Below are positions 3,606-29,735 of a DNA stretch of 43,178 bases, piece after piece (the stretch's first letter is position 1; each line of letters starts with the position of its first letter). This stretch comes from an uncultured Bifidobacteriaceae bacterium (GTDB taxonomy: Bacteria > Actinomycetota > Acidimicrobiia > IMCC26256 > PALSA-555). Made by a program: the position numbers and the translations under genes. The notes beneath the pieces were generated by a model. That model did not search any database and had not been told where the DNA came from. It saw nothing but the letters and a program-made list of their open reading frames with translations. The stretch is taken from contig CAZCYE010000003.1 in assembly GCA_964502775.1 (NCBI GenBank), positions 1 through 43,178 on the forward strand, read 5' to 3'.

Positions 3606-4190
3606 CTATGCAACCTGGGCCCGGTGGCTCCGGAGGTTGGGGATGCGCCGAGTGATCGTCATGAGCAGCCTGGCGACCCAGGTTCCGGTCTGGACGTGGA
3701 TCACGAGGAACGCCCCCAGCACGATCAGGACGTCGCCGATCGAGTACACGTTGGCCAGCGGGAGCCACGACGGTACAGCGAAGATGTCGCCGAGGAATGC
3801 GACGCTCGCGTCGTTGAGTGCAGTGGAGTTCTCGAACCCGTGGCCCACCGAGATGCCCGCCGCGCTCAGGGCCGAGCGGGACGCCGGCATCACGCCGTCG
3901 TTGGCGGCGATCGCCACGAGGTTCAGCACCCCACCGGCGAGCATCGTGAACCGCCACGGAATGCCCGAGTTGGCGAGGAGCCAGCCCAGCACCAGCACGT
4001 AGGTCGTCATGTGCAGTCCACGGGCGATCGAGCTGTCGCCGGCCACGATCGAGATGATCACGACCTGCACCACGAGCGCGCCCAGGACCACGCCCGTGCC
4101 GCGGAGCCGGATCTCGCCCAGGCGCCGCAGCCGGCCCCCCGTGAGGGGGACGCTGGCCAGCGCGACGCCGACGAGCAGGACCATTAGCAT
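3606..4190 (-). CDS. DUF5317-family polytopic membrane protein
   Basis: The 194-aa product has about 5 hydrophobic helices. The motifs ANDGVMPAS..LSAAGIS, FLGDIF and VYSIGDVLIVLG match my recollection of the DUF5317 signature (NGGxMPV...LGD...SIGD). The SD GGGAG lies 5 nt upstream of ATG 4190. Confidence 0.72.
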   Translation of the reverse strand: MLMVLLVGVALASVPLTGGRLRRLGEIRLRGTGVVLGALVVQVVIISIVAGDSSIARGLHMTTYVLVLGWLLANSGIPWRFTMLAGGVLNLVAIAANDGVMPASRSALSAAGISVGHGFENSTALNDASVAFLGDIFAVPSWLPLANVYSIGDVLIVLGAFLVIHVQTGTWVARLLMTITRRIPNLRSHRAQVA

Positions 4191-4404
4191 CAGGGCTCCC
4201 GGGAGGAATGGTTCGTGGGCTCCTTGGACACCGTTGTCGGCAATCGCTTGCGGGCCCTTGAGCGTGCCGCCGTCCCGTGGGCGTTTCGCGCAGGATGTCC
4301 GATTTGCTCGAGCTCCCCGAATCCCCCTTCAGCGGGCTCGGCTCGGCGCCGATACCTCCGGTCTGCGCCCGAATGGGCGCACAGAGCACCAGAGGAGCAG
4401 TTGG

Positions 4405-4494
4405 ATGAGAGCTCGTCTTCTGCGCATCAGCGTTGCCGCCGCCACGCTCGTCTCTCTCGTCGCCGTTCTCGGCGCCGGGATCAAGTGGCGCTGA
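4405..4494 (+). CDS. candidate 29-aa membrane micro-protein (MRARLLRISVAAATLVSLVAVLGAGIKWR)
   Basis: Below the size cut-off of the ORF track. ATG 4405 is preceded by AGGAG with a 7-nt spacer. The peptide has a basic N-terminus, an 18-residue hydrophobic core, GAG and a basic C-terminus. It lies 110 nt upstream of the GGDEF-EAL gene and is collinear, with the same length, with a second ORF at 25623..25712. Confidence 0.35.
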   Translation: MRARLLRISVAAATLVSLVAVLGAGIKWR

Positions 4495-4603
4495 CGACCA
4501 TTCGTGAGGGGGCCGTTCCGGGGCGAGAGCCTCGGGGCGGCCTCCTTTCTTTTTCACGGTCGGCGTTCTCACCGCGGGCTCGTTCCCATGGGGGGCGGCA
4601 TCC

Positions 4604-6643
4604 ATGACGGCCGAGGCCGGGACCGGCCGGGCGAGGCTGCTGCACGGCTACCTGACAGCGGTCATCGTCGTCGGCTTGGCCGACATCGCGGTCGCGGTGA
4701 GGTTCGAGGGTCCGGTCGTCCCTGACAGCAACGTCGGCCGCTACGCGGTCTTCGCGGCCATCATCGTGATCGGCGAGCTGTTCCCGGTGACCTTCAAGTT
4801 CCGCAACGAGCACCACGACGTCACCACGTCCACATCGTTCGCGTTCGCGGTGCTCCTGATGTTCGGCCTTGCCCCCACGTTGCTGGCGCAGTCGATCGCC
4901 TCGATCGCCTCTGACGTGCGCCAACGCAAGACATGGTGGCGGGCGTTGTTCAACGTGTCCCAGTACGCCTTGGCCTGGACGGCATGCTGGGCAGTGCTGC
5001 GAGTGAGCGGGGTCACCCGCTTCGACACGGCCGAGTCGTTCACGAGCGACGGGGCCGTGGGGCTCGTGGCGGCGGCGGTGGTCTTCATGGTCGTGAACTA
5101 CGTCTTCGTTGCGATCGCCGTTGCCCTCGCCCAGCGCTACGTCGTCGCCAGGAATTTCGTCTCGAGTGCTCGGATCGATCTGGCCATCTCGGCGGTGTTG
5201 TTCGCCATGGCGCCGGTCGTGGTGATCATCGGGGAGCAGAATCTCGCGCTCGTCCCCTTGTTGCTCGCGCCGCTCGCCGCCGTCTACCAGAGCGCCCGTA
5301 CCTCGATGGAGAAGCTGCATCAGTCCATGCACGACTCGCTCACCAACCTCCCCAACCGTCTCTACTTCGAGGAGCGCGTGCGGCAGGCGATTGACGAGCG
5401 GCCGGATGCAAAGCTCGATGTGTTGATCGTGAATATCGACAGCTTCTCAGAGATCAACAACACGTTGGGCCATCACGTGGGTGACATTCTCATCGTCCAG
5501 GTCGCCGATCGTCTCCGGAGTGCAGTGCCCGGCGACGCCGTGGTCTCACGCCTGGGCAGCGATGAGTACGCGATCTCGTTGCCGGCCGGCTCCGGTCACG
5601 ACGCGCGTGGCCTTGCCGACCTCATCCAGCGCTCGCTCGAGGCGCCGTTCGTGCTCGACGAGGTCACCTTCGAGGTGGGTGCGAGCATCGGGTCCGCCTC
5701 GTACCCCCTTCACGGGAACGACGTGGACACGTTGATCCGGCGAGCGGATTCGGCCATGTACGAAGCCAAGGAACGCCGGAGCGGCTTCGAGTGGTTCCGC
5801 CCCGAGCGAGACCACCGCGACGCCCGGCGCCTGACCGTGCTCGCCGAGCTGCGCCAAGGCATCGACGAAGGCCAGCTCGTCCTGCACTTCCAGCCCAAGG
5901 CCGAGTTGCCGACCGGGCGTATCCTCGGGGCCGAGGCGCTCGTGCGCTGGAACCATCCCGCGCTCGGTCTCCTCGGCCCGGACTCCTTCGTGCCCCTTGC
6001 CGAGCCCACGGGTCTCATCAACTCCTTGACGTTGCACGTGCTGGAGCAGGCACTGGAACAGTGCCACCGGTGGTCCGACGAGAAGCGGGATCTGCGGGTG
6101 TCGGTGAACGTGTCCGTGCGCAACCTGTACGACGAGCGGTTCGTGTTCGACGTCGACAGGATCCTCGAGCGCACGGGTGTCGATCCCAGTCGCCTCACGC
6201 TCGAGATCACTGAGAGCACGATGATGGCCGATCCGACGCGCCCGATCGCGGCGCTGGCGCAACTCAGTCTCCGAGGAGTCCAGATCGCCGTCGACGACTT
6301 CGGCACCGGATACTCGTCGCTCGCATACCTGCGCCGGCTCCCGGTGACCGAGATCAAGATCGACAAGTCGTTCGTGCTCGGCATGCTGGATTCGCCCGAC
6401 GACGCCACGATCGTCCGCTCGACGATCGATCTCGTACGCAACCTTGGGCTCATCGCGGTGGCCGAAGGCGTGGAGCGCGAGGAGGTCTGGAACGCGCTGA
6501 TCGAGCTGGGCTGTCACCGCGCCCAGGGCCACTACCTCACTCGGCCGCTCGCCGCCGATGCGTTCACGCACTGGCTCGATCGCTACGACCCGCGGGCGCC
6601 CGGTCGGCAGGCGCCCGCGTCGCGGGGGCTGCGCGCGGTCTGA
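4604..6643 (+). CDS. membrane-bound GGDEF(degenerate)-EAL protein, probable c-di-GMP phosphodiesterase
   Basis: The N-terminal ~235 aa are polytopic. The GGDEF domain (DSLTNLPNR, GHHVGD) has GSDEY in place of GGDEF. The EAL domain carries EALVRW, NVS, EITE, DDFGTGYSSL, KIDKSF, AEGVE and AQG. Confidence 0.9.
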   Translation: MTAEAGTGRARLLHGYLTAVIVVGLADIAVAVRFEGPVVPDSNVGRYAVFAAIIVIGELFPVTFKFRNEHHDVTTSTSFAFAVLLMFGLAPTLLAQSIASIASDVRQRKTWWRALFNVSQYALAWTACWAVLRVSGVTRFDTAESFTSDGAVGLVAAAVVFMVVNYVFVAIAVALAQRYVVARNFVSSARIDLAISAVLFAMAPVVVIIGEQNLALVPLLLAPLAAVYQSARTSMEKLHQSMHDSLTNLPNRLYFEERVRQAIDERPDAKLDVLIVNIDSFSEINNTLGHHVGDILIVQVADRLRSAVPGDAVVSRLGSDEYAISLPAGSGHDARGLADLIQRSLEAPFVLDEVTFEVGASIGSASYPLHGNDVDTLIRRADSAMYEAKERRSGFEWFRPERDHRDARRLTVLAELRQGIDEGQLVLHFQPKAELPTGRILGAEALVRWNHPALGLLGPDSFVPLAEPTGLINSLTLHVLEQALEQCHRWSDEKRDLRVSVNVSVRNLYDERFVFDVDRILERTGVDPSRLTLEITESTMMADPTRPIAALAQLSLRGVQIAVDDFGTGYSSLAYLRRLPVTEIKIDKSFVLGMLDSPDDATIVRSTIDLVRNLGLIAVAEGVEREEVWNALIELGCHRAQGHYLTRPLAADAFTHWLDRYDPRAPGRQAPASRGLRAV

Positions 6644-25292: not shown

Positions 25293-25622
25293 CCCGAAGA
25301 TCCTCCTGCGCTAATGGGCGCCATCGGGGCAATTGGAGGATACGGAACCCTGCCGCCCGTGACGAGGATACCTTCGCGCGGACAGTGGTGCCGTGGCTAC
25401 ATTCGGGCTTGCGAACTCGCCCGGTATCCACGAGACTTGCGTGGCTGAAGTGACGGTAGCGAAGCCAACGTGACCAATGTTGCCAGGGAGGTGAGCGAAG
25501 GAAGAGGACGGATCGGGCAGGGCCTCGGATGAATTGGGGCTGAAGAGCCTTGAAGCGGAGCGTCACCTCTCCGGCCTCTAGCGGAGCCGGCGGGAGTTCC
25601 TCACGATTGGGGGGGATTCACT

Positions 25623-25712
25623 GTGAAGAAGGTGATTGCCCGTCTCGCGCTTATCGGGTCAAGCATCGCTGCGATCGTTCTCGCCGGTGGTGCTGGCAAG
25701 GGACTGCGCTAG
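25623..25712 (+). CDS. candidate 29-aa membrane micro-protein (MKKVIARLALIGSSIAAIVLAGGAGKGLR)
   Basis: Below the track cut-off. GTG 25623 is preceded by GGGGGGA with a 6-nt spacer. It has the same length and architecture as ORF 4405..4494 and lies 66 nt upstream of the HD-GYP-like gene. Confidence 0.35.
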   Translation: MKKVIARLALIGSSIAAIVLAGGAGKGLR

Positions 25713-25777
25713 TAGTTCACATCCTGACGAAATGCTCTGAGGTCCTGCCCGCTCCGTCCTCTACTTCCCGAGATGTG

Positions 25778-27097
25778 ATGTTGGGCCTGTCTCGCTTCCG
25801 GGCGTATTGCTTCACCATCGGTACTGCCGCGTGTGCTCTGGGCACGTGCCTCGGAGTGTTCGGGCCCATGCCTGTGCTCGAGCCGATTCTTGTACTAGGC
25901 GTGCTCTTCGCAGTCGCCGAGAACAGCAGCGTCGAGCTACCGAATCGTTCAAGTCTCAGCGCAAGTCTCATGCTGGGCATGGCAGCGGTAGTTGTTTTCA
26001 GCGATGAAGCAGCAGTTCTCGGTCCGCTGTTCGTCGGAATGTTTGGGTGTGCCTATCTACCTCAGATCCGGAATCGGCAGTGGGCCAAGGTCTTCTTCAA
26101 CCTTGGAAACTTCGGCCTCTCAACCGCTGCGGCGGCACTTGTCTTTGCCGGAGTGCCTGTTCAGGTCGACGATTCGATCGGACTGCAGTTGCTCGCATCG
26201 ATTGCGGCAGCGTTAACCTTTGCAACGGTCAACTCTCTCCTTCTCGTTCCTGCCGTTTCGATCCTGACAGGCAAGGGGAAGCGCGCCGTCCTTCAAGAGA
26301 TGTGGGTGAGCGACGCGCAGATTCTGCCCTTCGCGTTCTTGGGAGCCGTACTCGGTCGTCTCTACGTCGACATTGGTGCGCTCATCGTTCCGCTCATCGT
26401 CGTTCCGATCTTCATCGCGCGTCAGGCGTTCGCCTCGTACCTCGAATTGCGTGCCGCGCACGAAGCCACGCTCTCGACGCTCGTGCTCGCACTCGAGTCG
26501 AAGGACCGTTACACGGCCGGGCACGTCGAGCGCGTCGCCAACTTCTCCCACCAAATCGGCCTCGAGTTGGGACTGCGGCCCGGTCGACTCGAGCGGCTCC
26601 GCCAGGCGGCCCTGATGCACGACATCGGCAAGCTCATCGTGCCCAACCAACTGCTCAACAAGCCCGGTCGGCTCACACCGTCGGAGTACGAGCGCATCCG
26701 AGCGCACGAGCACGTCTCGGTGGAGCTGATGCGCCGCATCGACTTCCTCGCTCCGCTTGCGCCGAGCATCGCGGCCGAGCAGGACCATGAGCCGGAGACC
26801 CCGCTCGAGAGTCGGATCATCCACGTCGCCGATGCGTTCGACGCCATGACGTCCACTCGGTCGTACCGTCGGGCGCTCACGCAGGAGGTCGCGATAGCGG
26901 AGCTCCGCGCGAAGTCCGGTACCCAGTTCGACCTCGAGTGTGCCGAGGCGCTGATCCGGGTGATCGAGCGCTCGGGTGTCCGCTATGGCGATGGCCATGA
27001 GGAGTCCCGGGCCGACTTCTCGGTGCCGCCGCCGGTCGTGGGTACCGGCTCGGCCGGATTGGGCGACCTGGAGGGGCAAGACGAGGTCCGGTCGTGA
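25778..27097 (+). CDS. polytopic membrane protein with a C-terminal HD-GYP-family domain lacking the GYP loop
   Basis: Track ORF 25550..27097 is trimmed to ATG 25778, which lies downstream of the small ORF. The HD domain shows TAGHVERVA, LMHDIGKL, RAHEHV and IIHVADAFDAMTSTRSYR. The HHExxDGxGYP segment is replaced by the shorter QDHEPETPLESR. Confidence 0.8.
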   Translation: MLGLSRFRAYCFTIGTAACALGTCLGVFGPMPVLEPILVLGVLFAVAENSSVELPNRSSLSASLMLGMAAVVVFSDEAAVLGPLFVGMFGCAYLPQIRNRQWAKVFFNLGNFGLSTAAAALVFAGVPVQVDDSIGLQLLASIAAALTFATVNSLLLVPAVSILTGKGKRAVLQEMWVSDAQILPFAFLGAVLGRLYVDIGALIVPLIVVPIFIARQAFASYLELRAAHEATLSTLVLALESKDRYTAGHVERVANFSHQIGLELGLRPGRLERLRQAALMHDIGKLIVPNQLLNKPGRLTPSEYERIRAHEHVSVELMRRIDFLAPLAPSIAAEQDHEPETPLESRIIHVADAFDAMTSTRSYRRALTQEVAIAELRAKSGTQFDLECAEALIRVIERSGVRYGDGHEESRADFSVPPPVVGTGSAGLGDLEGQDEVRS

Positions 27098-28269
27098 ACC
27101 GCCCGATGCGCTTCCTGGCAATCTTCGGCGTGGCGCTCGGCGCCGCAGCCGTCGCCGCGCTCGCGGATGCCCCCGCGCATGCGGTCGATCTGGTGGTGTT
27201 GGGCGGCGCGCTCGTGGCATCGGAGCAGCTGGAGCTGCGACCGACCGGCCGAGCGGCGCTCCCGTTGTCCTTCGCTTTGGTGGTGGTGCTGGTGCGGGCG
27301 GCTACTCCCGGCGAGTTCGTCGTGATCGTGGGTGTCGGCCTGGCCGTGGCAATGCTGCTCCGACCAGGCTCGTACAGTGAGCGAGGACTGCTGTGGTGCG
27401 AGCGCCTGGCCGAGGGGCTGGGTGCAGGCGCGGTGTACCGACTGATCGCCGAGTCGTTCGGTAGCCAGCACTCGGAGGCCAGGGTGCTGGCCGCGCTCGC
27501 CGGCGCCGCGGTCACCCAGATCGTGGTGGCGGACCTCGTGGTGCTCGCGCGGGAGCACCGGTTGGCTCCCGTCCGAGCCCGGGGCGCCGATCTCGCCCTG
27601 GTCACGAGCGGCATGTTGATGGCCGTGGGCTACGGGGGCATCGGTGGCAGTGGCCGCCTCGGGCTCTGGGGGCCCTTGCTGTTCTCGATCCCGCTGCTCG
27701 CGGCGTGGTACTCGTTCGAGTTGCTCGAGCGCACGCGCCGAAGCTTCCGCCAGACGGTGCGCGCGTTGGGCGTCGCACCAGAGCTCGGTGGATTGGTGCG
27801 GCCGGGACACGTCGAGCGCGTGGCTCAACTCGCCGTCGACATGGGTCAGCACGTCGGTCTGTCGTTCGTCCAGCTCACCGATCTCGAGACCGCGGCCTGG
27901 TTGCATCACCTCGGTGCGGTGTGCCTTGACGAGCCCGCCGAGGGAGAGCAGCACGACCCGCGGGAGGTCGCCCGAGCGGGAGCATCCATGCTCCGTGCCA
28001 GTGAGGCACTCGCAGCGGCAGGGGAGGTGGTTGCCGCCGAACCGCTGTTGCACCGGATGGCACCCGGGATCGGGCCGTCGTCGTCAGCTGCACTTGCCGG
28101 GCAGATCCTCAAGGTCGCAAGCGCGTACGACGAGCTGACCGAAGGCGATCACGCCCATGCCGCGTGGGCCGTGGAGGCGCTGTACACCGGCCCCGGCTAC
28201 GTCTACGACGGGCGCGTGCTGGGCGCACTCGAGCGCGCACTCACCGCGCGCGGTTGGCTCACTGACTGA
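27094..28269 (+). CDS. paralogous polytopic membrane protein with a degenerate HD-type domain (HD replaced by HH)
   Basis: GTG 27094 overlaps the upstream stop. It has the same N-terminal membrane architecture. PGHVERVAQLAVDMG is retained, but MHDIGK is replaced by LHHLGA and there is no GYP. Confidence 0.7.
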   Translation: MNRPMRFLAIFGVALGAAAVAALADAPAHAVDLVVLGGALVASEQLELRPTGRAALPLSFALVVVLVRAATPGEFVVIVGVGLAVAMLLRPGSYSERGLLWCERLAEGLGAGAVYRLIAESFGSQHSEARVLAALAGAAVTQIVVADLVVLAREHRLAPVRARGADLALVTSGMLMAVGYGGIGGSGRLGLWGPLLFSIPLLAAWYSFELLERTRRSFRQTVRALGVAPELGGLVRPGHVERVAQLAVDMGQHVGLSFVQLTDLETAAWLHHLGAVCLDEPAEGEQHDPREVARAGASMLRASEALAAAGEVVAAEPLLHRMAPGIGPSSSAALAGQILKVASAYDELTEGDHAHAAWAVEALYTGPGYVYDGRVLGALERALTARGWLTD

Positions 28270-28813
28270 CCGCGCGCCGACTCTTGGTGCGCCGGCTCTG
28301 GAAGTACGCGAGCTCGCACACGCCGACGCCCAGGACCAGGTCGCCGAACGAGATCAACATGTCGAAGGGCTCCGGTAGGAGGATCTTGTCGCCGAGGATG
28401 CCGAGCAGGTCCTCCTCGCTCGCCTGACGGTGCTTGACCGTCTGCTCCACCGGCTTGCGGATCCGGTTGCCCTGCGCGTCGTTGCCGATCGGCTTGGTGG
28501 GCATTCCCTGGTTGAGCCCGATCACCAGCGCGTTCATCGCGATTCCGATGGCGATGATCCCGAAGCCTCGTGCGAAGACGTTGGCCAGGCAGAAGGCGAG
28601 GATCAGGGCGTACGACGCCATCAGCGCGGCAAAGCCGATGGTCTCGATCTGATCTTTGGGGATGTCGACGTATTCGAGGGCGATCTGGATGCCAAAGCCG
28701 ACGAGGAGCATCCAAGGTGCCATCACCCGCACGCGAGCCAGTCGGGCGAAGCTTCCACGCGTCAGGATCACGACGAGAGCGGCCGCCGCGATCGTGAAGA
28801 CGAACAGCCACAC
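28259..28813 (-). CDS. DUF5317-family polytopic membrane protein (second copy)
   Basis: GTG start. The N-terminus WLFVFTIAAAALVVILTRGSFARLARVRV parallels that of the 3606..4190 product. Motifs are LNQGMPTKP, ILGDKIL and ISFGDLVLGVG. Its 3' end overlaps the convergent gene by 11 nt. Confidence 0.68.
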   Translation of the reverse strand: MWLFVFTIAAAALVVILTRGSFARLARVRVMAPWMLLVGFGIQIALEYVDIPKDQIETIGFAALMASYALILAFCLANVFARGFGIIAIGIAMNALVIGLNQGMPTKPIGNDAQGNRIRKPVEQTVKHRQASEEDLLGILGDKILLPEPFDMLISFGDLVLGVGVCELAYFQSRRTKSRRAVSQ

Positions 28814-29018: not shown

Positions 29019-29735
29019 ATGGGGATGCCGAGCAGTACCCCGAATCATGACCGCGACGAGTTCGCGCTCTTGATTGCTCACTATCGAGACGATGCCTACC
29101 GGTTGGCTCGGCGCCTGGTGAGAAGCGACGCCGAGGCCGAGGATCTCACCCAGACCGCGGTGTTGAACACCTTGCGGCGCGCTGAGCACATTCAGAGCGC
29201 GGGTCACGTGAAGGCGTACCTGCTCACGACCGTTCGCAACCTCTGGCGGAACCACCTGCGCGCCCAGAGTCGCCGCCGGTTCGTGAGTTCGGACACGGTC
29301 GAGCAGTTCCCGTCGGGCGACATTGGACCGGAGGAGCAGGCACTCACTGCCCTCGATGCGGCGCTGGCGGGCATTGCGTTTCGATCTCTCTCGGACACCA
29401 GTCGCGAGGTGATTCGGCTCCGCTACCTCGAGGGCTTGGGGTTCTCGGAGCTTGCTGACCAACTCGGGATCTCGCCGGTCGCGGCCCGTCAGCGGGCCCA
29501 TCGCGCCCGCGAGGAGCTCGTGGGCGCATGCATCGATTTCGCCGCCCGGGAGGGAAGCGGTGCGTGTGCGTGGGTGCGCGAGCGCTTCGGGCGGTACTTC
29601 CGTGGCCGGCTGACCCAGCCGACTCGAGCCCGCGTCGAGGGGCACTTGACGCGCTGTGCAGAGTGTCGCAACGGATACGACGACCTTGTGGATCTCTACG
29701 GCCGCCGCTTCTCGCGACTCAAGGGTGAAGCGTGA
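29019..29735 (+). CDS. ECF sigma-70 factor with a C-terminally fused zinc-binding anti-sigma (ZAS, HxxxCxxC) segment
   Basis: Region 2 is DLTQTAVLNTLR..VKAYLLTTVRNLWRNHLR. Region 4 is REVIRLRYLEGLGFSELADQLGISPVAARQRAHRAREEL. The same frame then reads GACAWVRERF...VEGHLTRCAECRNGY. Confidence 0.85.
   Translation: MGMPSSTPNHDRDEFALLIAHYRDDAYRLARRLVRSDAEAEDLTQTAVLNTLRRAEHIQSAGHVKAYLLTTVRNLWRNHLRAQSRRRFVSSDTVEQFPSGDIGPEEQALTALDAALAGIAFRSLSDTSREVIRLRYLEGLGFSELADQLGISPVAARQRAHRAREELVGACIDFAAREGSGACAWVRERFGRYFRGRLTQPTRARVEGHLTRCAECRNGYDDLVDLYGRRFSRLKGEA

What the first reader, a model, noticed from the sequence alone, without database searches (positions are those of the whole stretch)
25623..25712. 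Second 29-codon ORF, collinear without gaps with the one at 4405
GGGGGGA, a 6-nt spacer and GTG precede MKKVIARLALIGSSIAAIVLAGGAGKGLR. Aligned residue by residue with the 4405 peptide, which has the same length, positions 1 (M), 7 (R), 19 (V), 23-25 (GAG) and 29 (R) are identical, and most other positions are conservative hydrophobic swaps. Both ORFs sit 66-110 nt upstream of a protein carrying the shared membrane module. Matching length, architecture and position at two loci argues for a real small-gene family.
Basis: seen in the sequence. Interest (0 to 1): 0.65.

Follow-up and report, generated by a model that had tools for sequence, protein, structure and literature searches.

The report
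Conserved 29-residue membrane peptide gene
The 29-codon ORF is a real, unannotated gene for a tiny single-helix membrane peptide that recurs in many genomes beside one type of membrane-embedded c-di-GMP signalling enzyme and sits inside a conserved folded mRNA leader, so it probably acts as a dedicated partner or regulator of that sensor.

Summary
It is not chance. I found 23 ORFs of the same build. All are on the gene's strand: most lie just upstream of orthologous MASE9-domain c-di-GMP enzymes, one lies beyond the neighbouring DUF5317 gene, and one is a second tandem copy. They come from Acidimicrobiia and other Actinomycetota, plus one Clostridiaceae MAG. All have a Shine-Dalgarno sequence and are 25-30 codons long. 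Third codon positions vary most, and dN/dS is about 0.1-0.4 among close relatives.

A profile built without the window scores this ORF at 45 bits and the 4405 ORF at 14.7 bits; no other window ORF exceeds 7 bits. The 4405 ORF represents a divergent subfamily upstream of MASE9-GGDEF-EAL orthologues.

- A DUF5317 membrane protein co-occurs with the peptide gene.
- A covarying long-range RNA helix, 23 consensus pairs (27-nt arms 25503-25529 / 25736-25762 in the window), encloses the ORF.
- A leader motif AGCGRAGCG, invariant where present, lies 66-74 nt before the start, followed by a covarying hairpin. It has no Rfam match.

Best reading: a trans-acting single-pass membrane peptide that works with MASE9 and DUF5317, with synthesis gated at the RNA level. 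No experiment exists, so the mechanism is inferred.

The parts
25609..25616 (+). Shine-Dalgarno sequence GGGGGGGA of sORF-B, 6 nt before the GTG start
   Evidence: Read directly. An equivalent G-rich SD lies 5-10 nt before the start in all 20 family members examined.
25623..25712 (+). sORF-B: 29-codon gene for a predicted single-pass membrane peptide, MKKVIARLALIGSSIAAIVLAGGAGKGLR
   Evidence: It scores 45.1 bits against a profile built from other genomes. Codon-position differences are 0.24/0.10/0.42, and dN/dS is 0.11-0.31 against its five closest orthologues. This exact sequence is absent from the protein collection.
25503..25529 (+). 5' arm of the long-range RNA helix that encloses the leader and sORF-B
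   Evidence: 27-nt arms, 89% complementary, 206 nt apart. Across 14 loci: 23 consensus pairs, 88.5% of cells paired against 40-51% in slid registers, 17 pairs with compensatory changes, and 0 of 500 shuffles as good.
25736..25762 (+). 3' arm of the long-range helix; it starts 24 nt after the sORF stop and ends about 15 nt before the MASE9 gene start
   Evidence: GU/UG cells 25 against AC/CA 10 (p = 0.008) place the helix on the + strand transcript.
25554..25562 (+). Leader motif AGCGGAGCG, 69 nt upstream of the start codon
   Evidence: AGCG[AG]AGCG lies at -66 to -74 in 17 sORF loci, including a Clostridiaceae MAG, plus the variant L037 locus. Only about 26 other occurrences were found in 1.96 Mb. 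No Rfam family matches.
25567..25596 (+). Hairpin P2 (CTCTCCGGC / GCCGGCGGGAG) with the loop CUCUAGCGGA
   Evidence: A hairpin at the same place, with different stem sequences but a YAGCGR-containing loop, appears in most of the 19 leaders.
25778..27097 (+). Downstream gene: MASE9 membrane domain plus an HD_5 (HD-GYP-type) domain, 439 aa
   Evidence: Pfam MASE9 26.0 bits, HD_5 80.5 bits.
27094..28269 (+). Second gene of the operon: membrane domain plus a degenerate HD domain (HH in place of HD), 391 aa, start overlapping the previous stop
   Evidence: A 380-394-aa gene sits in the same position in L161, L163 and L165.
28259..28813 (-). DUF5317 membrane protein, convergent with the operon
   Evidence: Pfam PF17248, 74 bits. 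DUF5317 is present in 17 of 21 sORF-positive loci and in 2 of about 148 sORF-negative loci.
4405..4494 (+). sORF-A: paralogous 29-codon peptide gene, MRARLLRISVAAATLVSLVAVLGAGIKWR
   Evidence: 14.7 bits. Subfamily members lie next to MASE9-GGDEF-EAL orthologues in L166, L167 and L168. It is present in the collection under an NCBI source on a 43,178-nt contig.
4506..4547 (+). Intrinsic-terminator-like hairpin (19 pairs) followed by TCTTTTT, directly after sORF-A
   Evidence: Analogous hairpins follow the sORF in L166, L167, L007, L009 and L084a.
4604..6643 (+). MASE9-like membrane domain plus GGDEF plus EAL protein, 679 aa
   Evidence: Pfam GGDEF 125 bits, EAL 244 bits, MASE9 22.9 bits, just below the cut-off. 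Several orthologues carry a precomputed PF20972 hit.
3606..4190 (-). DUF5317 membrane protein, divergent from sORF-A
   Evidence: Pfam PF17248, 77 bits. The same divergent arrangement occurs in L166-L168.

Best explanation
sORF-B is a translated gene. Its product is a 29-residue single-pass membrane peptide, probably N-terminus in and C-terminus out. The N-terminus is basic (K2, K3, R7). The helix runs from about residue 8 to 25 and ends in a small-residue packing motif (A-G-G-A-G). A short interfacial tail follows.

It belongs to a previously unnamed family that forms a conserved gene module with MASE9-domain c-di-GMP enzymes and a DUF5317 membrane protein. The window holds two diverged copies of the whole module: 3606-6643 and 25623-28813.

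The most likely mechanism is that the peptide acts in trans within the membrane. It would bind the MASE9 sensor domain and/or DUF5317 as an accessory or regulatory subunit and so tune c-di-GMP turnover.

In the HD-type module its synthesis appears to be gated at the RNA level. A structured leader (the AGCGRAGCG motif and hairpin P2) precedes the Shine-Dalgarno sequence. A long-range helix (23 consensus pairs) closes the leader plus sORF into a loop of about 200 nt, and its 3' arm ends 8-29 nt before the MASE9 gene start. The helix probably sets the relative expression of peptide and enzyme, either by occluding the enzyme's initiation region or by serving as a double-strand processing site.

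Shown: the ORF, its conservation, its coding-type evolution, the gene linkage and the RNA covariation. Inferred: translation, topology, the physical partner and what the RNA senses.
For: The gene is real:
- A Shine-Dalgarno sequence is present in every member.
- Length is held at 25-30 codons.
- Codon-position differences are 0.24/0.10/0.42, and dN/dS is about 0.1-0.4 within the close group.
- Public gene-calling pipelines call orthologues as genes.

It is specific:
- 21 hits of at least 23 bits among 21,162 small ORFs, all co-oriented with and upstream of the MASE9 gene; the next best scores 12 bits.
- A pattern scan found 13 matches on the + strand and 0 on the - strand.

It is linked to the membrane domain, not to the output domain. 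The same peptide type precedes MASE9-HD and MASE9-GGDEF-EAL genes. It is absent from Streptomyces and Acidobacteria loci that share mainly the HD domain. DUF5317 co-occurs in 17 of 21 positive loci against 2 of about 148 negative ones. The peptide, MASE9 and DUF5317 subfamilies split in parallel.

It acts in trans:
- Terminator-like hairpins separate the sORF from the enzyme gene at 4506-4547 and in L167, L007 and L009.
- In L166 a DUF5317 gene on the opposite strand lies between the sORF and the enzyme gene.
- L084 has an extra stand-alone copy with its own terminator.

Independent literature: MASE9 was proposed to bind its ligand within the membrane (bioRxiv 10.1101/2021.11.05.467447).

RNA gating. 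An equivalent 25-bp enclosing helix of unrelated sequence is present in the Clostridiaceae locus L013.
Against: - No expression, proteomic or interaction data exist; nearly all loci are metagenome-assembled.
- No natural fusion of the peptide to MASE9 was found among the 120 listed homologues or in the representative library, so there is no Rosetta-stone support.
- In the Jiangellales locus L037 the RNA leader and the arms are kept, but the ORF encodes a hydrophilic 21-residue peptide. There, the RNA or the act of translation may matter more than a membrane helix.
- Several MASE9-like homologues lack the sORF altogether: Acidobacteria, Actinocorallia, Trebonia and Sphaerisporangium.
- A complex could not be modelled with the tools at hand.
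Confidence: 0.55

Rival explanations
1. Cis-acting upstream ORF. Only the act of translating the short ORF matters. A ribosome terminating 7-30 nt before the 3' arm loosens the long-range helix and so couples translation of the downstream MASE9 gene to the state of the leader. The peptide itself has no function.
For: - The 3' arm begins +7 to +30 nt after the stop and ends 8-29 nt before the MASE9 start.
- The leader motifs sit at a fixed distance from the start codon.
- L037 keeps the RNA but not the hydrophobic peptide.
Against: - The amino-acid sequence is under purifying selection, and its build is kept across phyla, including a low-GC Clostridiaceae locus.
- The sORF-A subfamily, L007, L009 and L084a have the peptide without the enclosing helix, and most are followed by terminator-like hairpins.
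- In L166 the sORF is not adjacent to the enzyme gene.
Confidence: 0.15
2. Exported pro-peptide. The ORF is essentially a signal peptide (basic n-region, hydrophobic core, small-residue c-region AGGA|G). Cleavage releases a 4-6-residue C-terminal peptide outside the cell, and that peptide is the ligand of the MASE9 sensor. DUF5317, with its two invariant aspartates, might be the processing enzyme.
For: - The n-h-c layout and the (near-)invariant G-A just before a variable, subfamily-specific tail.
- DUF5317 has invariant N94, N101, D142 and S155-x-G157-D158 and co-occurs with the peptide.
Against: - None of the 23 peptides has a cysteine, so there is no lipobox.
- The tail is rich in Trp/Leu/Phe plus Arg/Lys/His, which is typical of interfacial anchoring rather than of a diffusible signal.
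- DUF5317 shows no sequence or fold similarity to any solved protease, signal peptidase II included.
- I know of no precedent for a 4-5-residue mature part directly after a signal peptide (from memory).
Confidence: 0.08
3. Type I toxin-like module. The ORF encodes a small hydrophobic membrane-damaging peptide, and its mRNA is kept inactive by a 5'-3' fold-back, as in hok or aapA1.
For: A 29-residue hydrophobic peptide, plus an mRNA whose flanks pair over 21-38 bp around the ORF. The resemblance to the hok fbi element and the AapA1 long-distance interaction is recalled from memory.
Against: - Synteny with MASE9 and DUF5317 is strict and co-oriented across phyla, and the module duplicated in parallel.
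- The sORF-A subfamily lacks the fold-back.
- No antisense RNA gene was sought or seen.
- There is no PADLOC, Pfam or NCBIfam hit.
Confidence: 0.05
4. Not a gene. The open frame is a by-product of a conserved structured non-coding RNA, or of chance in GC-rich DNA.
For: - The surrounding RNA is clearly structured and conserved.
- GC-rich DNA carries many spurious ORFs (1087 small ORF variants in the window).
Against: - Variation has three-base periodicity with the third position most variable, and dN/dS is below 1.
- The stop position, the SD and the start are conserved.
- The frame is kept in a 42% GC Clostridiaceae leader (GC).
- The peptide is conserved where the RNA structure is absent.
Confidence: 0.03

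Closest known systems
Small single-pass membrane proteins that regulate membrane sensors (e.g. MgrB with PhoQ, SafA with PhoQ; recalled from memory)
   Same: Under 50 residues, one transmembrane helix with a short extracytoplasmic tail, and a proposed action by binding a membrane-embedded sensor protein.
   Different: - No sequence relationship (no Pfam or NCBIfam hit).
- The partner here is a MASE9 c-di-GMP enzyme, not a histidine kinase.
- The gene is physically tied to the sensor gene and to DUF5317 across phyla.
- Expression involves a structured leader and an enclosing helix.
Tiny hydrophobic subunits of membrane complexes encoded at the head of their operon (e.g. KdpF, CydX; recalled from memory)
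   Same: A peptide of about 29-37 residues with one helix, encoded immediately upstream of or within the operon of its multi-spanning partner.
   Different: The partner is a signalling enzyme rather than a transporter or oxidase. In several loci a terminator or an enclosing helix lies between the peptide gene and the partner gene.
Type I toxin mRNAs with 5'-3' long-distance pairing (hok/sok, aapA1/isoA1; recalled from memory)
   Same: A small hydrophobic peptide ORF enclosed by pairing between the 5' and 3' flanks of its mRNA.
   Different: Conserved synteny with a sensor gene, no antitoxin RNA identified, and the pairing is absent in the paralogous subfamily.
MASE9 membrane-associated sensor domain (Pfam PF20972; Galperin and Chou, bioRxiv 10.1101/2021.11.05.467447)
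   Same: The downstream proteins carry this domain fused to an HD_5 or a GGDEF-EAL output, the architectures described in the paper.
   Different: The paper mentions neither an associated small ORF nor DUF5317, and it leaves the ligand unknown, suggesting only intramembrane binding.
Riboswitch-type leaders that precede very short ORFs (e.g. the glutamine-II / Downstream-peptide motif; recalled from memory)
   Same: A conserved structured leader with invariant unpaired nucleotides at a fixed distance from the start codon of a tiny ORF.
   Different: No Rfam family matches at the gathering threshold, and the best weak match has E = 1.3. No ligand is known, and the additional 21-38-bp helix encloses the whole ORF.

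Membership tests
New sORF family (defined here): about 29-residue peptide next to MASE9 genes | Basic N-terminus (M-K/R-K/R...R7), a hydrophobic stretch of about 15 residues, a [ASLV]-G-[GSA]-A core, a 3-6-residue tail, and a total of 25-30 residues | tested here: met
   sORF-B scores 45.1 bits against a profile built without the window sequences. Alignment A3 shows R7 and G23 near-invariant and A24 invariant.
New sORF family (defined here) | Located on the same strand as, and within about 1 kb upstream of, a MASE9-domain gene, with DUF5317 nearby | tested here: met
   sORF-B ends 65 nt upstream of the MASE9-HD_5 gene, and DUF5317 lies at 28259-28813. The same layout recurs in L001-L009, L082-L085 and L161-L168.
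New sORF family (defined here) | Evolves as a coding sequence | tested here: met
   Codon-position differences 0.24/0.10/0.42; dN/dS 0.11-0.31 for sORF-B against its five closest orthologues.
MASE9 (PF20972), for the downstream proteins | Score at or above the Pfam gathering cut-off of 24.3 bits | tested here: met
   The HD_5 protein scores 26.0 bits. The GGDEF-EAL protein scores 22.9 bits, just below, but several of its orthologues carry precomputed PF20972 hits.
HD-GYP c-di-GMP phosphodiesterase, for the 25778-27097 protein | HD metal-binding residues plus the HHExxDGxGYP motif | tested here: inconclusive
   HD_5 scores 80.5 bits and H..HD..H residues are present, but the window protein and its Acidimicrobiia orthologues read ...AAEQDHEPETPLES... 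where L013 and L037 have HHERxDGxGYP. Activity is therefore uncertain.
Bacterial lipoprotein signal peptide | Lipobox with an invariant Cys at +1 | tested here: not met
   L-A-G-G resembles a lipobox, but none of the 23 peptides contains a cysteine.
Type I toxin-antitoxin | Small hydrophobic peptide with long-distance 5'-3' mRNA pairing | tested here: met
   Met for sORF-B only; not met for sORF-A.
Type I toxin-antitoxin | Antisense or overlapping antitoxin RNA, and toxicity on overexpression | not testable with these tools
   No transcriptome or expression data are available.
Type I toxin-antitoxin | Independent, often mobile or variable genomic context | tested here: not met
   Strict linkage to MASE9 and DUF5317 in 21 loci across two phyla.
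Any described RNA family (Rfam 15) | Covariance-model score at or above the family gathering threshold | tested here: not met
   No match in the whole window at gathering thresholds. The best permissive match in 25440-25800 is drz-agam-1 at 15.8 bits against 37, E = 1.3.
MgrB-like and other named small membrane regulators | Sequence membership in a named family | tested here: not met
   No Pfam, NCBIfam or PADLOC family matches either peptide. Public sources name orthologues only 'hypothetical protein'.
MgrB-like and other named small membrane regulators | Physical binding to, and modulation of, the sensor | not testable with these tools
   Needs two-hybrid, co-purification or multimer structure prediction.

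The most novel reading that the evidence does not exclude
The unit at 25503-25762 is a new class of ligand- or protein-responsive RNA switch. The aptamer-like core would be the AGCGRAGCG motif plus the P2 loop YAGCGGA, closed by a long-range helix. It would control synthesis of a dedicated membrane peptide, and that peptide would be the long-sought intramembrane ligand of the MASE9 sensor domain. RNA, peptide, MASE9 enzyme and DUF5317 would then form a self-contained feedback circuit on c-di-GMP, possibly sensing c-di-GMP or its breakdown product.
Probability: 0.15. Interest if true: 0.85.

Novelty: new variant of a known kind. Interest (0 to 1): 0.68.

Why it matters
MASE9 is a widespread membrane sensor domain of c-di-GMP enzymes. 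Its signal is unknown, and the paper that defined it could only suggest that ligand binding happens inside the membrane.

A conserved 29-residue membrane peptide encoded next to MASE9 genes, and duplicated along with them and with DUF5317, is a concrete candidate partner. That makes the question directly testable by tagging, two-hybrid assays, deletions and c-di-GMP read-outs.

The analysis also adds three things:
- an unnamed small-protein family;
- a functional context for DUF5317;
- an apparently undescribed structured RNA leader with nucleotides that are invariant from Actinomycetota to a Clostridiaceae genome.

It also shows that this exact peptide sequence is missing from the public protein collection searched, so the gene is probably unannotated in its source record.

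Tried and rejected
- **Protein searches with the peptide.** They are impossible in the large word-indexed database, which needs at least 40 residues. The exhaustive representative library gave only 3 hits at E <= 0.001: one 29-mer and two over-extended ORF calls. There was no fusion to MASE9.
- **Natural fusions.** The longer N-termini of P0030, P0040, P0090 and others do not contain the peptide.
- **DUF5317 as a signal-peptidase-II-like or GxGD-type protease.** The idea came from the two invariant Asp residues and the lipobox-like LAGG. It found no support: no PDB sequence match, and the AlphaFold model (pLDDT 80) has no Foldseek match in the PDB with E below 2.7.
- **Known RNA families.** None match.
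- **Defence-system models and NCBIfam for the neighbours.** Nothing meaningful.
- **RNAduplex-type energy scan of the flanks.** It produced unrealistic full-length duplexes. I replaced it with an ungapped arm scan with shuffles.
- **RNAalifold on the leader alignment.** It gave no consensus because the P2 registers differ by 1 nt between sequences. P2 was therefore documented sequence by sequence.
- **The motif AGCGGAGCG in the Acidobacteria locus L045.** It lies inside a sigma-54 activator gene, so it is a chance hit.
- **A sigma-70-type promoter near either sORF.** None was found.
- **Literature.** No paper links a small protein to MASE9, and no paper mentions DUF5317.

Full report
**1. The observation**

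The window is GC-rich (69%). Its closest protein relatives come from Acidimicrobiia MAGs. At 25609-25625 the sequence reads GGGGGGGA-TTCACT-GTG. The frame then runs for 29 codons to TAG at 25710-25712 and encodes MKKVIARLALIGSSIAAIVLAGGAGKGLR. The ORF at 4405-4494 also has 29 codons, MRARLLRISVAAATLVSLVAVLGAGIKWR.

Downstream lie a 439-residue protein with MASE9 and HD_5 domains (25778-27097) and a 679-residue protein with a MASE9-like module plus GGDEF and EAL domains (4604-6643). The two membrane modules are only weakly similar to each other: 23% identity over 96 residues, E = 6e-4.

**2. Is it more than chance?**

- Seven identities between two hydrophobic 29-mers are not significant (p = 0.12). 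The position-wise BLOSUM62 score is significant (32 against -6.8 +/- 11.9 for shuffles, p = 0.0015).
- Only these two of 811 small ORFs in the window fit the architecture.
- The decisive test uses other genomes. I fetched 160 loci encoding relatives of the HD protein, plus the contigs of several close homologues. An ORF of the same build lies upstream of the gene in L001-L009, L013, L082-L085, L161 and L163-L165.
- A pattern scan found 13 matches on the gene's strand and none on the other strand.
- A profile built without the window sequences scores sORF-B at 45.1 bits and sORF-A at 14.7 bits. The next distinct ORF among 1087 in the window scores 7.0 bits. The best of 5000 shuffles of sORF-A scores 13.0.
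- Over all loci (21,162 small ORFs, 936 kb), 21 ORFs score at least 23 bits. All are co-oriented with and upstream of the MASE9 gene. The next best scores 12.3 bits.

**3. Is it coding?**

- Every member has a G-rich Shine-Dalgarno sequence 5-10 nt before an ATG, GTG or TTG start.
- Length is held at 25-30 codons.
- In the close group, differences per codon position are 0.24, 0.10 and 0.42. NG86 dN/dS is 0.11-0.31 between sORF-B and its five closest orthologues. The core GCN-GGN-GGN-GCN varies almost only at third positions.
- The frame is also kept in a low-GC Clostridiaceae locus (L013, MKKVLKALGAIIAMVLSAGAQFFWL).
- Public pipelines call the orthologues as 29-30-residue hypothetical proteins.
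- sORF-A is present in the protein collection under an NCBI source on a 43,178-nt contig. The exact sORF-B sequence is not in the collection.

**4. The 4405 ORF**

Orthologues of the MASE9-GGDEF-EAL protein carry a related subfamily:

- MRARLFRLASAAATIVALAASLGAGVKWR directly upstream in L167;
- MKARLYRLAGGIAGLAATVALLGAPRKW in L168;
- MKARLVRLSIALTSLIALVAALGAGRKWH in L166.

In L166 a DUF5317 gene on the opposite strand lies between the sORF and the enzyme gene. A Sphaerisporangium orthologue has none. The two window ORFs are therefore paralogues of one family, and each has stayed with its own type of MASE9 enzyme.

**5. A third conserved gene**

DUF5317 (PF17248) membrane proteins lie at 3606-4190 (-) and 28259-28813 (-). 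A DUF5317 gene is present in 17 of 21 sORF-positive loci. Two of the four exceptions are truncated contigs. It is present in only 2 of about 148 sORF-negative loci. One of those two is truncated upstream, and the other is L037, discussed in section 7.

The DUF5317 proteins split into the same two subfamilies as the peptides and enzymes, so the whole module was duplicated. DUF5317 has invariant N94, N101, M104, P105, D142, S155, G157 and D158. The AlphaFold model (pLDDT 80) shows five helices and a small sheet. It has no sequence or fold relative in the PDB. I could not assign it a function. A signal-peptidase-like role is not supported.

**6. RNA structure around sORF-B**

Aligning the flanks of 14 loci revealed a long-range inverted repeat. 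In the window the arms are 25503-25529 and 25736-25762, 27 nt, 89% complementary, 206 nt apart.

- On the alignment, 23 pairs are 88.5% paired, against 40-51% in slid registers.
- 17 pairs show changes on both sides.
- None of 500 shuffles reaches the observed values.
- G-U/U-G cells outnumber A-C/C-A cells 25 to 10 (p = 0.008), as expected for a helix on the + strand RNA rather than a DNA palindrome.
- An ungapped arm scan gives z = 5-17 in all 14 loci, with loops of 186-226 nt.
- The scan also finds a 25-bp helix of unrelated sequence around the Clostridiaceae sORF (z = 9.5) and a 15-bp one in L006.
- The helix is absent around sORF-A, L166-L168, L007, L009 and L084a. Most of these instead have terminator-like hairpins just after the ORF: 4506-4547 plus a T-run in the window.

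**7. The leader inside the loop**

- AGCG[AG]AGCG lies 66-74 nt before the start codon in 17 sORF loci, including L013, L006 and L007. Elsewhere the motif occurs about 26 times in 1.96 Mb.
- It is followed by a hairpin (P2; window 25567-25596). The stem sequence differs between lineages, while the loop keeps YAGCGGA.
- In many loci a C-rich tract just 5' of the motif can pair with the Shine-Dalgarno sequence. I did not test this pairing statistically.
- A covariance model of the leader finds it once in the window, and also in L037, a Jiangellales MAG. In L037 the arms and the leader are present, but the ORF encodes a hydrophilic 21-mer, MKKASSAIENFLRTGANWRWQ.
- No Rfam family matches.

**8. 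Interpretation**

The protein-level conservation, the co-duplication with MASE9 and DUF5317, and the loci where the sORF is transcriptionally separated from the enzyme gene all argue that the peptide is a trans-acting product. Its features fit a single-pass membrane helix that packs against other helices:

- a positive N-terminus;
- a helix of about 18 residues ending in small residues;
- a Trp/Leu/Phe plus basic tail.

The authors who defined MASE9 suggested that it binds its ligand within the membrane. I therefore rank 'intramembrane accessory or regulatory subunit of the MASE9/DUF5317 module' first, at 0.55. That it is a real gene I put at about 0.9.

The RNA features suggest that, in the HD-type module, peptide synthesis and the peptide-to-enzyme ratio are controlled post-transcriptionally. 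The 3' arm ends 8-29 nt before the enzyme's start codon, so the helix could occlude initiation or act as a double-strand cleavage site. This last step is inference only.

The rivals are a pure cis-acting uORF, an exported pro-peptide, a type I toxin and a non-coding by-product. They are weighed in their own section of this report.

**9. Comparison with known systems and novelty**

The peptide works most like the small membrane regulators and subunits (MgrB, KdpF, CydX type; recalled from memory), but it belongs to none of them. Its mRNA architecture recalls type I toxin mRNAs, but the context test for that family fails. No paper in the library links a small protein to MASE9 or mentions DUF5317. 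I rate it a new variant of a known kind: a new small-protein family with an unusual, apparently undescribed RNA setting.

**10. Limits**

- There are 23 peptides from 22 loci, nearly all from MAGs.
- The collection scans were capped at 80 loci each.
- The peptide is too short for the large protein searches, so the true distribution is unknown.
- Nothing here demonstrates translation, membrane insertion or binding.

Noticed in passing
window 25503-25529 and 25736-25762: A long-range RNA helix (27-nt arms here, 23 consensus pairs) encloses the leader and sORF-B. It covaries across 14 loci and is replaced by an unrelated 25-bp helix in a Clostridiaceae locus.
   Followed up: yes
window 25554-25562 and 25567-25596: Leader motif AGCGGAGCG at a fixed distance (-66 to -74) from the sORF start in 17 sORF loci plus the variant L037 locus, followed by a covarying hairpin with a YAGCGGA loop. 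It has no Rfam match and may be an undescribed regulatory RNA.
   Followed up: partly
window 3606-4190 (-) and 28259-28813 (-): Two DUF5317 membrane-protein genes, one beside each sORF/MASE9 module. The family has invariant Asn, Asp and S-x-G-D residues and no sequence or fold relative in the PDB.
   Followed up: yes
window 27094-28269 (+): The second gene of the operon encodes a membrane domain plus an HD-like domain that reads HH where HD is expected. Its start overlaps the stop of the previous gene. A gene of the same size and position is conserved in L161, L163 and L165.
   Followed up: no
window 25778-27097 (+): The 'HD-GYP' protein and its Acidimicrobiia orthologues lack the HHExxDGxGYP motif (...AAEQDHEPETPLES...), whereas the L013 and L037 orthologues have it. 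Its phosphodiesterase activity is therefore uncertain.
   Followed up: partly
window 4506-4547 (+): A strong intrinsic-terminator-like hairpin (19 pairs, then TCTTTTT) lies between sORF-A and the MASE9-GGDEF-EAL gene. This implies a separate short transcript or attenuation.
   Followed up: partly
L037 2143-2370: A Jiangellales locus keeps the leader motif and the long-range arms, but its ORF (2261-2326) encodes a hydrophilic 21-mer, MKKASSAIENFLRTGANWRWQ. DUF5317 is present.
   Followed up: partly
L084 1357-1449 and 1799-1891: Two tandem family members lie upstream of one MASE9 gene. The first lacks the leader and is followed by a perfect 14-bp hairpin (1471-1503).
   Followed up: partly
window 25432-25446: A block GAGACTTGCGTGGCT, conserved in the closest orthologous loci, lies about 60 nt 5' of the 5' arm. 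It may be a promoter or another RNA element. No sigma-70-type promoter was found by the scan.
   Followed up: no
window 29019-29735 (+): An ORF with ECF sigma-factor regions 2 and 4 followed by a zf-HC2 anti-sigma motif lies downstream of the module. A sigma/zf-HC2 gene occupies the same position in L161, L163 and L165.
   Followed up: no
L168 1-2131 (-): Here DUF5317 is fused to an MFS-type transporter domain in a 776-residue protein that is divergent from the sORF-A-type gene.
   Followed up: no
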